A DNA stretch of 64,000 nucleotides from a virus (taxonomy: Duplodnaviria; Caudoviricetes): the IMG/VR virus record IMGVR_UViG_3300047382_000771, positions 136,095 to 200,094 of that record. One strand, given 5' to 3'. Shown here piece by piece: positions 30,592 to 55,099 of this stretch (positions are counted from its first letter, which is position 1; the number at the start of each line of letters is the position of its first letter). The notes beneath the pieces were generated by a model. It had not been told where the DNA came from and did no database searches. It was given only the letters and a program-made list of their open reading frames with translations. The translations under genes and the position numbers were made by a program.

Positions 30592-30846
30592 TTAGATTTT
30601 GAACTCTACATCACCAGAATCGAGATCTTTGTCTTCTGGCTCTAAGACTTTACTTACGGTTAGAGACTCGGTCTCTGCACCACCTACATCTTCTTCCTTT
30701 AGGTTATTTGGGCTAACGATAGCCCTCATTGCCTGAATTAAGATTTTGTCTGTCTCAGTCATTGGGTTAAACTCCTCTTCGCTATCAAAGAGAGATTTGA
30801 TTTGATTGTATTCGTGATCACCGATTAATAATTCTACTAATTTCAT
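30592..30846 (-). CDS. Hypothetical acidic protein
   Basis: 84-aa ORF abutting both neighbours. Confidence 0.6.
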   Translation of the reverse strand: MKLVELLIGDHEYNQIKSLFDSEEEFNPMTETDKILIQAMRAIVSPNNLKEEDVGGAETESLTVSKVLEPEDKDLDSGDVEFKI

Positions 30847-31896
30847 TTATATTGCATCCTTTTTTGAGATTCCTAATATTCTAGCCTTCCAGCTTTCCAT
30901 ATTGTCAAGCCGTTCGACTTCTTCCTCGACTAGAGCTTTTTGCATGTCAGCTAACTGAATCATTTGCTTCCTCTGCTCCTCTAGTTGGAAATTCTTAACA
31001 AGCGATAATATACTGGCATGATCGTCACGCCGATTCTTTAGTCGCTCTGCACGGTCACCATTTAATTTCTTAATAAGTGATTCCATGCGTTTCTCACATT
31101 TGTCGTATTCGTCAGTTTTAGATTTTAATACTTCTGCTAGTCTAACAGTCATATCTTGCTGATCCTCAACCTCATTAAACATATTATTTAACTTTTCTAT
31201 ATGAGAAGATATATTTTTTAAATTAATATAATCCACACAGACATTAATATATAAATTTATTTCGTCTGCTGTAAGATCTGGTTTATCCCATGTAGCCCTT
31301 ATGAATTCAGCCTCAAATAATTTTCTATCTTTATCACTACTATAGTTACCTATTACCTGAATGAATCTAGGAGAAGAAAGGTTCCTGATAAGGTTCTTGG
31401 CACATTCTATATCATCGTGTGTCATCTTATCTTCAACGAACTCTGTATGAGCAAATTCGTTAATTTTACCTACAGCTGTTTTTATTATTTTAGGCGGATG
31501 GTATTGCCTGTTAATAGCTGTTTCGCTTTCATGGACAAAATTAGGCTCATATTCTCTTAAAAACTCTAATACGCAGACATGGTGCTTGGAGAATCTTTTA
31601 ACAGTGACATCTGGAAACAGTATTTCTGCAATTTGAAATGCACTCAACCCGTTCTCAGCCTGAGCCTTAATAAAATCTACTTGAGCTTCGGTTAAATCTA
31701 TATCTTCCATTTTCTCCCAAGCACTAGTCTCATATTCCAAGTTTTGACTTGCTAGAAATTTCCTAACCGCCCTGCCTTCTTTTGTGCGACCATCTAAGTC
31801 GGGATCGCCGAACAGTCTTCTAGTTAAATCAATAAGACTTGGATTTTTCTTAAACTCTTCAGTTAAGAACTGTTGCTGCTCGTCAGTTAAGTCCAT
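30847..31896 (-). CDS. Hypothetical protein (possible terminase small subunit)
   Basis: 349 aa, with HTH-like segments (GLSAFQIAEILF) and a C-terminal coiled coil. Upstream of terL. Confidence 0.45.
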   Translation of the reverse strand: MDLTDEQQQFLTEEFKKNPSLIDLTRRLFGDPDLDGRTKEGRAVRKFLASQNLEYETSAWEKMEDIDLTEAQVDFIKAQAENGLSAFQIAEILFPDVTVKRFSKHHVCVLEFLREYEPNFVHESETAINRQYHPPKIIKTAVGKINEFAHTEFVEDKMTHDDIECAKNLIRNLSSPRFIQVIGNYSSDKDRKLFEAEFIRATWDKPDLTADEINLYINVCVDYINLKNISSHIEKLNNMFNEVEDQQDMTVRLAEVLKSKTDEYDKCEKRMESLIKKLNGDRAERLKNRRDDHASILSLVKNFQLEEQRKQMIQLADMQKALVEEEVERLDNMESWKARILGISKKDAI

Positions 31897-52881: not shown

Positions 52882-53071
52882 CGGAAGTCAAGTTTTTGAG
52901 CAAAAAAAATGACAACTAATTATTTAGCTGCCACTTATTTATAATATATTTATTTGTAATTGATTTGTAATATATGTATTTGTAATTTAATAATTTATTA
53001 TGTCTTATAGTTTTGTACTAGTATAAAAAACACTATAGCTGTAAAAGATAAAAACATTATTGCATCCACTG

Positions 53072-53362
53072 TTATCTAGCTCTTATTTTGTTTATAGCTA
53101 ACTTGATAAAATTTGGTGTTAAGTGGTGCTCTAACATGGAGTCTAATTCCCTAGAGGATAAGAATACTTCTCTGCAGTAGTCAGTATTGTCACTTTCTAC
53201 AGCTGCAATTCTTGCCGATGCTTTAGACGCAGCTATCTGCTCCCTAGGCATCCCGCCCCATTTAATAATAACGGGAAGATCGGGCAACTCTGCCGATAAA
53301 GCTTTTAATTGAACGGAGTCTATGTAACCCCAATTATCGATGATGTCTTTTAATATAGTCAT
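53072..53362 (-). CDS. Early hypothetical protein
   Basis: Start re-assigned to MTILKD; TTGCCT-17-TATATT-6-ATG. Confidence 0.65.
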   Translation of the reverse strand: MTILKDIIDNWGYIDSVQLKALSAELPDLPVIIKWGGMPREQIAASKASARIAAVESDNTDYCREVFLSSRELDSMLEHHLTPNFIKLAINKIRAR

Positions 53363-53410
53363 AAGAGTAATATAGATTAAGCCCCAGGAAGAGGCAAGAA
53401 AAAAATACAT

Positions 53411-53451
53411 AAAAAAAACCCCACTCGCCGAAAGGAAAACGAGTGGGGTTT
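53411..53451 (-). terminator. Strong hairpin terminator
   Basis: 12-bp perfect stem (53416-53427 / 53440-53451) followed on the minus strand by a T run. Confidence 0.8.
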
Positions 53452-53922
53452 AGGGATGGGGGACGTGAGCTTTCGCTCGAAATAGATGTGGGACAGGAAT
53501 ACTGAATACCTGCAACTTTCGGTGTGAACATCAGTTCATTGGTTATCCTACTTGTACTACAATTGAATTGGACATTCTACCTCAGACATTTGTCCATTGG
53601 CACTCCACCACAGAGAATCATATACCTTACCTCGCACACAAAGAGGTCTTCGGTCACCCACAGGGAGGATTATAAGCCCTCCCAAAGAGAATCACGAAGG
53701 AGAAACAAAACTGACAACTCTGCTTGGCGCCTTCTTTGCAGGGGTTCGTCAACCAATGTCATATCAAGTTTCTGCTTAGCGAGCAGTCTTCAATCAGTAC
53801 GGAGATGTAAGATTGTAAGTACTGAAGCTAAAACTTCGTAAAATTATTTAAAATGTAAAAGATCGAAAAGTCTGGGGTTATTTTATTTGATTGAGTTACC
53901 CCTTCTCAATTATGGAGAATAT
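53411..53922 (-). ncRNA. Candidate large structured non-coding RNA (about 510 nt)
   Basis: TTGACA-17-TACTAT promoter (53957-53929) with ATA rather than ATG at +1. Many local hairpins, one long-range helix, and a terminator at the 3' end. Confidence 0.55.
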
Positions 53923-54188
53923 ATTAGTATAGTACTATATATGCCCCAATTTGTCAACTATTTTTTTGAATATAGATGACTTTTTTCCAACGGATCATCA
54001 CATAGAAAGCAAGGTCCATGACCTGCCTTTGGGCAAGAATGGCTGAAGTCAGGCTCTTCTTGCAAGCAATGATTACATCCTGCAGACAATAACACAGATA
54101 ATAGAATAAAATATTTCATTGAATTATAATTATAGTTTATAGATTTGTAAATGTATTATATAATTACTAGTATGTTTATCAAGATAAA

Positions 54189-54386
54189 TTATGCAACCCC
54201 CTTGGCTAGACGCAACGCCCTTTGGGCTTGAATTTCTTTTAACCTGCGATCTGCCTCCATCTGTTGGGCTAATATGCCCTCCGTTTTAGCATTGTAACCT
54301 GCGAACCTAGAATTAAAAGCATGAGGGTTTTGTCCTTTTACTTTACTTAATACTTCTGATGCTCTTGCACATTTTGCTACGTTCAT
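54189..54386 (-). CDS. Hypothetical protein
   Basis: 65-aa ORF; AAGGAA upstream. Confidence 0.55.
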   Translation of the reverse strand: MNVAKCARASEVLSKVKGQNPHAFNSRFAGYNAKTEGILAQQMEADRRLKEIQAQRALRLAKGVA

Positions 54387-54450
54387 TTTATTCCTTTCGT
54401 TAGTGATTGTTTTGGTTATAGAGTTACTATATAAGATTTAAAAATTAAAG

Positions 54451-54702
54451 TCAAGCCCCTTTTTGCAATAATCTGCATTCTCTTAAAATTTGTTTTAATT
54501 TAAAAAATGCTTGGTCGGGCGGAAACAACTTAGCGTTAGCTTCGGAAGTAGTAGCACGATACAAATCTTCTACGAACTCTTCTGCTTTAACCAAATTAAT
54601 TAAAGTAATTTCTTTTGAAGTTAATTTGTCGTACATCTCTTCTTTAGAGGCGAATAGACCTATGTTTTTAATTCCTTGTTGTTCTGCTATATTTTTTATC
54701 AT
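54451..54702 (-). CDS. Hypothetical protein
   Basis: 83 aa; TTGACA-17-TAGTAT-6-ATG. Confidence 0.7.
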   Translation of the reverse strand: MIKNIAEQQGIKNIGLFASKEEMYDKLTSKEITLINLVKAEEFVEDLYRATTSEANAKLFPPDQAFFKLKQILRECRLLQKGA

Positions 54703-55099
54703 AAGGGGATACTAAGGGATATTCTGTGTTGTGTCAACTATCTTTTTGATATTAATTAAAATTTTGGGGCACGCTCGCATAAATTACTGATGAGCAAATA
54801 CTTGTGAATCAAATTGGAAACAAGCGGGGCAATAGGTCTTCCTCCATATGGGGTTGTCGGCGCGACAAAATGGACAAATTTTTCCTCCAATTATTTGAGA
54901 CTTCGGTGCGCAACTAGAAAGTAAGCAAGTTATTATTAAGTATTTTATAAAATTTTTCATTCAATTATTTATAATGCCAAACAAATCGAGTGTTCAATGA
55001 AGGCACAAAACCCCAGTAACAAAGGGTAAAACAACCTCGTCCGATAACATCTATCGACTCTATGCCTCGATTTATTATTTGGCAAAAATTTATTTACAA

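What the first reader, a model, noticed from the sequence alone, without database searches (positions are those of the whole stretch)
53411..53957. Candidate large, multi-stem non-coding RNA (about 510 nt) with its own promoter and terminator
Seen: a consensus promoter TTGACA-17-TACTAT (53957-53929). Its siblings have ATG about 6 nt after the -10 box, but this one has ATA. A 12-bp terminator with a T run lies at 53411-53451. The interval is visibly more GC-rich than its flanks and has only a 30-codon internal ORF plus one ORF crossing the terminator. Helices: GGGAGGG/UCCUCCC (53663-53683; a G-U wobble on minus but an A-C mismatch on plus), GAGC-GAAA-GCUC (53467-53478), CUGCU/AGCAG (53772-53786), CAGUAC/GUACUG (53795-53824), UGGACA/UGUCCA (53569-53596), and a long-range CAUUGGUU/AACCAAUG pair (53751-53758 with 53537-53544). 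Established: phages carry large ornate RNAs of unknown function (GOLLD and ROOL classes). I could not see tmRNA, RNase P or group I/II intron hallmarks. One stem (53712-53751) fits the plus strand slightly better, so the strand call rests mainly on promoter and terminator. Inference: a novel or divergent ornate phage RNA, possibly a protein sponge or anti-defence RNA.
Basis: partly seen in the sequence, partly recalled or inferred. Interest (0 to 1): 0.75.

Follow-up and report, generated by a model that had tools for sequence, protein, structure and literature searches.

The report
Free-standing manA RNA gene in phage
The flagged 510-base stretch is a real, separately transcribed folded RNA of an uncultured marine phage. 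Its core belongs to the known "manA" RNA family, but here it is laid out like a miniature ribosomal-RNA operon rather than as a switch in front of a gene.

Summary
Window 53411-53957 (minus strand) is an ORF-poor transcription unit with a sigma70-type promoter and a strong intrinsic terminator.

It is not a new RNA class. Positions 53483-53683 match Rfam manA (RF01745) at 61.8 bits against a cut-off of 55.2.

Forty distinct relatives from uncultured phages share the layout:
- promoter;
- small hairpin, which is a pseudoknot in 12 loci, including this one;
- a box that matches the NusB/S10 site "boxA" of rRNA leaders;
- an optional stem-closed insert;
- the manA core;
- terminator;
- then a fresh promoter for a leaderless next gene.

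The core is 98.5% paired, and 30 of 52 pairs covary. Loops L8/L9 and L5/L7 are complementary and covary. These are the loop pairs that a 2026 cryo-EM preprint reports as the kissing contacts of manA cages.

The same boxA-like box sits 1 nt before the phage's own tmRNA gene. The 150-nt insert (53692-53841) is lineage-specific. The nearest relative carries a 24-nt hairpin at that site instead.

My reading is a free-standing early structural RNA gene, made under Nus-factor antitermination, that probably self-assembles. Its role in infection is unknown.

The scan has found free-standing manA-type RNAs before on other DNA. It is a new variant of a known kind, of moderate interest.

The parts
53929..53957 (-). 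Sigma70-type early promoter: -35 TTGACA at 53952-53957 and -10 TACTAT at 53929-53934. Predicted +1 is near 53922.
   Evidence: A promoter of this type lies 58-267 nt upstream of the core in 37 of 39 related loci that hold enough upstream DNA.
53874..53909 (-). Leader hairpin that forms an H-type pseudoknot. S1 is UUGAG (53905-53909) with CUCAA (53891-53895). S2 is GGGGU (53898-53902) with ACCCC (53874-53878). An A-rich loop lies between them.
   Evidence: S1 has compensatory variants: UUAAG/CUUAA in L039 and L054, AUGAG/CUCAU in L010. S2 shows seven different complementary pairs in the 12 loci that have the long loop, and is absent where the loop is short.
53847..53865 (-). boxA-like box. The core GAUCUUUUACA is at 53854-53864, followed by UUUUAAA.
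   Evidence: Measured against the consensus GYTCTTTAANA of PMC5725501, 8 loci match perfectly, 19 have one mismatch and 11, this one among them, have two. A at position 2 also occurs in the B. subtilis rrn boxA, which likewise follows a small hairpin (PMC13753749). The same box lies 1 nt before the tmRNA genes of this phage and of 5 relatives.
53692..53841 (-). Lineage-specific insert. It is a Y-shaped domain closed by the 8-bp stem UUACGAAG (53834-53841) with CUUCGUGA (53692-53699).
   Evidence: It folds at -41.6 kcal/mol, z -2.92. It was found only in L136/L137 and L148, with 3 compensatory pairs. It has no match in 129 other loci and no Rfam hit. L144 carries a 24-nt hairpin at this site.
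53483..53683 (-). manA RNA core (RF01745), helices P1-P9.
   Evidence: 61.8 bits against a gathering score of 55.2, E 2.6e-13, model positions 1-192. Covariation across 40 relatives. L8-L9 pairing ACUGA/UCAGU and L5-L7 pairing UGG/CCA.
53467..53478 (-). GNRA hairpin GAGC-GAAA-GCUC, directly after the core.
   Evidence: Conserved in L144, L136 and L148. Compensatory AAGC/GCUU in L140.
53452..53466 (-). C-rich, G-poor linker containing CCCAUCC.
   Evidence: Similar C-rich linkers lie in many relatives. Its role is unexplained.
53411..53451 (-). Intrinsic terminator: a 14-pair stem followed by U8.
   Evidence: A hairpin plus T-run lies within 200 nt of the core in 34 of 40 relatives, mostly at +43 to +71.
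53072..53397 (-). The next transcription unit, not part of the RNA. Promoter TTGCCT-17-TATATT is at 53369-53397, the ATG 6 nt after the -10 box is at 53362, and the 96-aa ORF runs 53072-53362.
   Evidence: An ORF96-family gene lies within 1.2 kb downstream in 25 of 40 loci. 27 of 40 loci have a promoter with ATG 5-7 nt after the -10 box right behind the terminator.

Best explanation
Window 53411-53922 (minus strand) is a free-standing early gene for a stable structured RNA. It is not a 5' UTR switch.

Host RNA polymerase starts at a consensus-like sigma70 promoter. The first ~75 nt form a small pseudoknotted hairpin followed by a boxA-like sequence.

By analogy with rRNA leaders, I infer that this sequence recruits NusB/S10 and the other Nus factors. 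That would keep the untranslated transcript from being cut short by Rho, and it would help the RNA fold as it is made.

Next comes a lineage-specific 150-nt Y-shaped domain, then the ~200-nt manA-family core, a GNRA hairpin and a strong intrinsic terminator.

The core keeps the loop pairs L8/L9 (5 bp here) and L5/L7 (3 bp here). These are the loops that form the intermolecular kissing contacts in cryo-EM structures of other manA RNAs. I therefore think the product most likely self-assembles into closed pentamer-based oligomers. The 5' insert and the 3' hairpins would then be peripheral decorations.

What is shown:
- family membership;
- the conserved transcription-unit layout;
- covariation of helices and loops;
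- the shared box with tmRNA.

What is inferred:
- Nus-factor use;
- self-assembly of this particular RNA, and of any manA RNA in cells;
- any role in host takeover.
For: Family membership: full-length Rfam manA hit above the gathering score. Eight relatives tested scored 71-89 bits.

Core structure: 40 distinct relatives are 98.5% paired, against 32-54% when partners are slid. 30 of 52 pairs change on both sides.

Free-standing layout:
- promoter in 37 of 39 loci;
- terminator in 34 of 40;
- a new promoter with ATG 5-7 nt after its -10 box in 27 of 40.

No switch platform: terminator sequences and linker lengths vary freely while the core is fixed. Some loci place extra hairpins in between, so no conserved antiterminator pairing is visible.

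boxA reading:
- matches to GYTCTTTAANA, counted against the consensus read;
- the E. coli and B. subtilis boxA consensus, and the hairpin-then-boxA order in rrn leaders;
- the same 14-nt box 1 nt upstream of the tmRNA 5' end in this genome;
- the same box behind a promoter plus hairpin in 5 related phages.

Loop pairing: G185-C214 becomes A-U in L056/L092 and L117, and L117 reaches a 6-bp ACUAAA/UUUAGU. UGGU/ACCA alternates with UGGC/GCCA, and extensions also covary.

Self-assembly precedent: the cryo-EM preprint reports 8-, 10- and 60-mer manA cages held by L5-L7' and L8-L9' kissing loops.

Contrast case: the manA of cyanophage P-SSM2 has no box and no terminator, and it abuts the next ATG.
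Against: No transcript data exist for this locus. Three metatranscriptome libraries hold only contigs of relatives' cores, and contigs cannot show ends or strand.

The window's own box departs from the gammaproteobacterial boxA consensus at two positions. Short boxA-like words are not enriched in the genome. The host and its own rrn boxA are unknown.

The box could instead be an RNA-processing signal.

In at least three relatives (L026, L015, L079) the core runs straight into an ORF with no terminator. The free-standing layout is therefore not universal.

In the window's subgroup L5-L7 is reduced to 3 bp. Self-assembly was shown only in vitro and for other members. My loop numbering is matched to the paper's by position, not by its sequences.
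Confidence: 0.7

Rival explanations
1. It is a cis-acting riboswitch or attenuator. The manA core senses a ligand and controls read-through of the terminator at 53411-53451 into the 96-aa gene downstream.
For: Rfam files manA as cis-regulatory, and Weinberg et al. rated it a riboswitch candidate found in 5' UTRs. An ORF96-family gene lies downstream in 25 of 40 loci. P-SSM2, L026, L015 and L079 have a true 5' UTR layout.
Against: The next gene has its own promoter, with the ATG at the predicted +1, in 27 of 40 loci. Terminator arms and linkers are not conserved and do not overlap the core. Extra hairpins sit between core and terminator in several loci. L010, L090 and L108 separate the core from ORF96 by other genes, and in L003/L017 the two lie apart on one contig. 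A boxA leader shared with tmRNA points to a stable-RNA gene.
Confidence: 0.1
2. The conserved leader box is not a Nus-factor site. It is a processing or stability signal, such as an RNase E/G or phage endonuclease site. It would trim the leader from both manA RNA and tmRNA precursors.
For: The box ends 1 nt before the mature tmRNA 5' end. It is AU-rich and predicted to be single-stranded. The window's copy has two mismatches to the boxA consensus.
Against: tmRNA 5' ends are made by RNase P, which reads the tRNA-like fold and not the leader (established knowledge). Eight manA leaders and all five relatives' tmRNA leaders match GYTCTTTAANA perfectly. The hairpin-then-box order copies rrn leaders. 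The two roles do not exclude each other.
Confidence: 0.2
3. A short ORF inside the unit is the real product. Candidates are the 30-aa ORF at 53670-53762, the 65-aa ORF at 53334-53531, or the plus-strand 105-aa ORF at 53524-53841.
For: The ORFs exist.
Against: They have no credible family match. One- and two-nt indels among close relatives shift the frames, and L144 lacks the insert that holds the 30-aa ORF. Substitutions follow base-pairing rather than codons.
Confidence: 0.02

Closest known systems
manA RNA motif (Rfam RF01745; Weinberg et al. 2010, PMC2864571; cryo-EM assemblies in Ren et al. 2026 preprint, doi 10.64898/2026.07.01.735769)
   Same: It has the same core fold and the same conserved nucleotides, and it scores above the gathering cut-off. 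It occurs in a marine phage. It keeps the L5/L7 and L8/L9 loop complementarity.
   Different: It has its own terminator, and the next gene has its own promoter, so it is not a 5' UTR. It carries a 240-nt 5' extension of pseudoknot, boxA-like box and 150-nt insert. The outer stem of P8 is non-canonical, and L7 is rebuilt so that L5-L7 is only 3 bp. In P-SSM2, the classical type, the promoter abuts P1 and the ATG follows 15 nt after the core.
rRNA-operon antitermination leader (boxB-like hairpin plus boxA; NusB/NusE/NusA/NusG/SuhB complex), also used before suhB and CRISPR arrays (PMC5725501, PMC13753749)
   Same: A small hairpin is followed by a (G/U)GAUCUUUAACA-type box near the 5' end of a long untranslated structured transcript. 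The relatives' boxes match GYTCTTTAANA.
   Different: It lies in a phage, in front of manA RNA and tmRNA genes. No Nus binding was tested. The window's copy has two mismatches. The hairpin is a pseudoknot in some lineages. I found no description of this use.
GOLLD and ROOL large phage-associated RNAs
   Same: These are phage-borne, free-standing structured RNAs of unknown function whose relatives form RNA-only multimers in vitro.
   Different: There is no sequence or structure match. The conserved core here is far smaller, at about 200 nt.

Membership tests
manA RNA (RF01745) | Covariance-model score at or above Rfam's gathering score, over the whole model | tested here: met
   61.8 bits against 55.2, model positions 1-192 of 192, E 2.6e-13 for the 64-kb window.
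manA RNA (RF01745) | Consensus helices supported by covariation in homologues | tested here: met
   40 distinct relatives are 98.5% paired, and 30 of 52 pairs have double-sided changes. In the window itself, cmscan marks non-standard pairs in the outer P8 stem (4), P6 (2) and P3 (1).
manA RNA (RF01745) | Lies in the 5' UTR of a protein-coding gene (the basis of the 'Cis-reg' label) | tested here: not met
   A strong terminator and a second promoter separate it from the next ORF. This is a matter of context and not part of the Rfam model.
manA RNA (RF01745) | Complementary L5/L7 and L8/L9 loops, the kissing contacts in the cryo-EM structures | tested here: met
   L8-L9 pairs as ACUGA/UCAGU (5 bp). 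L5-L7 pairs as UGG/CCA (3 bp, weaker than the 4-5 bp of most relatives). Both covary in the family. Loop numbers were matched by position.
manA RNA (RF01745) | Self-assembly into closed oligomers | not testable with these tools
   Shown only in vitro, for other members.
Riboswitch | An expression platform whose alternative pairing overlaps the aptamer | tested here: not met
   No conserved antiterminator was found. Linkers and terminator arms vary, and extra hairpins intervene.
Riboswitch | Ligand binding | not testable with these tools
   No ligand is known for manA.
rrn-type boxA antitermination leader | Match to the boxA consensus near the 5' end of the transcript | tested here: inconclusive
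   The window reads GAUCUUUUACA, two mismatches to GYTCTTTAANA. Among relatives, 8 match perfectly and 19 have one mismatch. A at position 2 is natural in B. subtilis boxA.
rrn-type boxA antitermination leader | A hairpin upstream of boxA, in front of an untranslated stable RNA | tested here: met
   The hairpin or pseudoknot precedes the box in 27 of 33 distinct leaders that hold the box. The same order occurs before tmRNA in L160 and L162.
rrn-type boxA antitermination leader | NusB/S10 binding and protection from Rho | not testable with these tools
   This needs biochemistry or genetics.
GOLLD / ROOL | Covariance-model match | tested here: not met
   No hit at the gathering score, or at E up to 5, in 53000-54400.

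The most novel reading that the evidence does not exclude
In this phage clade, manA RNA is the product of a miniature rRNA-like operon. A Nus-antitermination leader, shared with the phage tmRNA, drives early mass production of an RNA that builds protein-free cages in the infected cell. The hypervariable stem-closed module inserted just 5' of the core would be an exchangeable surface or cargo adaptor, under diversifying selection through an arms race with the host.
Probability: 0.12. Interest if true: 0.85.

Novelty: new variant of a known kind. Interest (0 to 1): 0.45.

Why it matters
manA has been listed since 2010 as an orphan riboswitch candidate. In 2026 it was shown to build RNA-only cages in vitro, but its biology is unknown.

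This locus and about 40 relatives show a clade in which manA is plainly a gene of its own. It has an rRNA-style leader, which it shares with the phage tmRNA, and a swappable add-on domain.

That recasts the question from "what ligand?" to [quoted passage not shown]. It also gives concrete handles for experiments:
- boxA mutants;
- L8/L9 compensatory mutants;
- constructs with and without the insert.

The use of boxA before phage non-coding RNA genes may itself be undescribed.

Tried and rejected
- blastn of the unit, and of a relative's core, against 50,697 GenBank phage records found no match.
- A first IMG/VR pattern was too strict and gave 0 hits.
- 72 of the 119 stretches from the looser pattern were chance matches with no manA.
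- No homologue of the 150-nt insert exists in 129 loci. A subgroup-specific pattern brought only one more member (L131), plus other RNAs.
- No RNA holder is listed for this exact DNA. The RNA-library contigs that I laid cover only relatives' cores, and parts without cover prove nothing.
- Minimum-free-energy folding does not separate the strands.
- ORF96, the conserved downstream neighbour, has no Pfam or PHROG family. Its model is confident (pLDDT 92) but has no informative match in PDB. In AlphaFold DB its only significant match is an uncharacterized relative.
- A host search with the 19-nt box in 185,579 genomes gave 10 hits, none next to rRNA. One (L169, a marine 'Rickettsiales' MAG contig) carries a manA unit and may be a mis-binned phage.
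- The short boxA-like word is not enriched in the genome. One extra match lies in coding sequence.
- The genome has no psbA. Syn9 and S-RSM4 have no manA.
- I considered a conserved pairing of the C-rich linker with P1 or P2 by eye and dropped it.

Full report
**What is there**

The minus strand of window 53411-53957 carries a TTGACA-17-TACTAT promoter at 53957-53929. It also carries a 14-pair hairpin with a run of eight U at 53451-53411. The ORFs between them are short. None has a credible Pfam match. Among close relatives, 1- and 2-nt indels break their frames.

In this phage, many early promoters are followed by ATG 6-7 nt after the -10 box, which means leaderless mRNAs.

The genome is an IMG/VR virus record of 200,094 bp, rated complete by CheckV. 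It carries rIIA and rIIB just upstream of this early region. It occurs in seawater and marine viral metagenomes. It has no psbA, and its rIIA is only 28% identical to that of cultured phages.

**Identity of the core**

Rfam cmscan gives one hit in the whole window. It is manA (RF01745) at 53483-53683 on the minus strand, scoring 61.8 bits against a gathering score of 55.2 over all 192 model positions. No other family reaches E 5 in 53000-54400, apart from a chance match on the terminator. GOLLD and ROOL are therefore excluded.

manA was described by Weinberg et al. 2010 as a riboswitch candidate of marine metagenomes and T4-like cyanophages. A 2026 preprint reports that manA RNAs assemble in vitro into 8-, 10- and 60-subunit closed particles. 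These are held by intermolecular kissing loops L5-L7', L8-L9' and L3-L8', and by a GNRA-receptor contact.

**Relatives and structure**

Homologues of the downstream 96-aa ORF led to 9 IMG/VR loci. Seven of them carry manA upstream of the ORF: directly upstream in six, and about 0.8 kb away in L010.

A pattern scan, followed by a covariance model built from six sequences, brought the set to 43 hits, of which 40 are distinct. Eight that I re-tested against Rfam score 71-89 bits.

On this alignment, 98.5% of cells are paired, against 32-54% when the partners are slid. Thirty of 52 pairs change on both sides.

The hairpin loops that I number L8 and L9 are complementary in every sequence. Most read ACUG/CAGU, and the window reads ACUGA/UCAGU. 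The central G-C becomes A-U in L056/L092 and again in L117, where the duplex grows to ACUAAA/UUUAGU.

L5 and L7 pair as UGGU/ACCA. They switch together to UGGC/GCCA, and their extensions covary as UGGUA/UACCA, UGGUG/CACCA and GUGGU/ACCAC. In the window's subgroup L7 is rebuilt, and only UGG/CCA remains.

These are the loop pairs named in the cryo-EM work. Sequence alone cannot tell whether they pair within one molecule or between molecules.

**The transcription unit**

The counts across the 40 loci are as follows:

| Feature | Loci |
|---|---|
| TTGAC[AT]-N16-18-TAnnnT promoter 58-267 nt upstream of the core (the window's is the longest) | 37 |
| Hairpin plus T-run within 200 nt downstream, mostly at +43 to +71 | 34 |
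| New promoter directly after the terminator, with ATG 5-7 nt after its -10 box | 27 |

Linkers and terminator arms differ freely between loci, and some loci place extra hairpins in between. In the window, the terminator and the GNRA hairpin fold independently. I therefore see no riboswitch expression platform.

The layout is not universal. In L026, L015 and L079 the core runs straight into an ORF.

In cyanophage P-SSM2 the manA core scores 181.6 bits. There the promoter abuts P1, and the next ATG follows 15 nt after the core, with no box and no separate terminator. That is the classical 5' UTR layout on which the Rfam label rests.

**The leader**

Between the promoter and the core, most relatives have a 5-bp hairpin, UUGAG/CUCAA. 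It shows compensatory variants: UUAAG/CUUAA and AUGAG/CUCAU.

In 12 loci, the window among them, the loop is longer. It carries 4-5 nt that are complementary to a stretch lying behind an A-rich run. Seven different complementary pairs occur:
- GGGGU/ACCCC (the window);
- GGAU/AUCC;
- GAGGC/GCCUC;
- GGGU/ACCC;
- GGGC/GCCC;
- AGAU/AUCU;
- AAGCU/AGCUU.

Loci with the short loop lack the partner. This is an H-type pseudoknot supported by covariation.

Directly after it lies the most conserved leader element, (U)UGAUCUUUAACAUUUUAA. The window reads CGAUCUUUUACAUUUUAAA at 53865-53847.

I measured it against the gammaproteobacterial boxA consensus GYTCTTTAANA (Baniulyte et al. 2017). Eight loci match perfectly, 19 have one mismatch and 11, including the window, have two. 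Only 25 perfect matches exist in 2.77 Mb of all fetched DNA.

The E. coli consensus is UGCUCUUUAACA. The B. subtilis rrn consensus is AUGAUCUUUGAAA, and it lies immediately after a small 5' hairpin. The phage box is a blend of the two, in the same hairpin-then-box order.

**The tmRNA link**

The only other exact copy of the 14-nt box in the genome ends 1 nt before the 5' end of a tmRNA gene. That gene lies at G000 30645-31043 (L150 1101-1499). ARAGORN calls it, and Rfam scores it at 124.8 bits.

Five related phages have the same arrangement. Two of them show a clear TTGACA-17-TAATAT promoter and a small hairpin in front of the box.

The box therefore marks the two stable-RNA genes of this phage clade. 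I infer that it is a boxA that recruits NusB/S10 and the Nus complex. In rRNA operons, before suhB and before CRISPR arrays, such a site protects untranslated RNA from Rho and aids folding.

From my own knowledge, cyanobacteria lack Rho. That would fit the absence of the box in P-SSM2.

A processing signal is a rival reading that does not exclude this one. Short boxA-like words are not enriched genome-wide, so the argument rests on the extended identity and on the conserved position.

**The insert**

Between the box and P1, the window has 150 nt (53692-53841). This stretch folds into a Y-shaped domain closed by an 8-bp stem.

Only three metagenomic relatives carry it (L136, L137, L148), with three compensatory pairs. 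L144 is the closest relative, with an ORF96 that is 89% identical and a nearly identical core. At this site it has a 24-nt hairpin instead. L140 has yet another module.

Among the IMG/VR loci, at least three further shared insert types occur, and many loci have none. None of the inserts matches Rfam.

The site is thus a hot spot for stem-closed add-on modules. L117 shows the same cassette-like behaviour: its upstream gene is 93% identical to the window's, yet its manA unit differs.

**Expression**

No RNA run holds this exact DNA.

Three metatranscriptome libraries from different studies hold contigs 80-95% like the core only, over about 53480-53680. Two of these contigs, 175 and 178 nt long, align over nearly their whole length. 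This is a weak hint that relatives' cores are present in RNA. It gives no evidence on ends, strand or this locus.

**Verdict**

The object is a member of a known family, in a layout that differs from the catalogued one:
- it is free-standing;
- it has an rrn-like leader shared with the phage tmRNA;
- it has a lineage-specific 5' domain.

This scan has already met free-standing and extended manA-type RNAs on other genomes, so the class itself is not new here. As far as I could find, the boxA-like leader, its sharing with tmRNA, the leader pseudoknot and the hypervariable insertion site are new.

Noticed in passing
L150:1101-1499 (minus) = G000 contig 1, 30645-31043, outside the window: The phage encodes a tmRNA (Rfam 124.8 bits; tag peptide AESSQRVVDLDSIELGLEMAA). 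Its 5' end is preceded, 1 nt away, by the same boxA-like box as the manA unit. Five related phages (L158-L162) have the box in the same place. L160 and L162 also show a clear TTGACA-17-TAATAT promoter and a small hairpin in front of it.
   Followed up: partly
window 42777-63892, both strands: Many sigma70-type promoters have ATG exactly 6-7 nt after the -10 box, with no Shine-Dalgarno sequence. This implies leaderless early mRNAs. The same spacing recurs behind the manA terminator in 27 of 40 related loci.
   Followed up: partly
window 53072-53362 (minus): A 96-aa protein family lies downstream of manA in 25 of 40 loci. It has invariant KWGGMPRE and DYxREVF motifs. Its AlphaFold model is confident (pLDDT 92) but matches no named fold or family.
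   Followed up: yes
L130:12580-13400, L133, L134, L135 and L132:4900-5400: The 21-nt module CCRAUGGRCAAAUGUCUGAGG, which is P6 of the window's manA subgroup, also occurs inside other ORF-free, helix-rich stretches of IMG/VR contigs. Model R1 does not call these stretches manA. L132 looks distantly manA-like.
   Followed up: no
window 53452-53466 and the same place in relatives: The linker between the manA core and the terminator is C-rich and G-poor, with a recurring (C)CCAUCC. I found no pairing partner for it.
   Followed up: partly
L117:1027-1240 and flanks: The gene upstream of this manA unit is 93% identical to the window's 83-aa ORF (54451-54702). Yet the manA unit differs strongly, with a different leader length, different L8/L9 and no ORF96. 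This suggests cassette-like exchange.
   Followed up: no
window 53958-54119 and 54784-54960 (minus): Two very small Cys-rich predicted lipoproteins (53 and 58 aa) lie among the early genes. They are absent between the 83-aa gene and manA in several relatives.
   Followed up: no
L169:1476-1697: A contig binned as a marine 'Rickettsiales' MAG carries a full manA unit with the box. It is either a mis-binned phage contig or a hint about the host.
   Followed up: no
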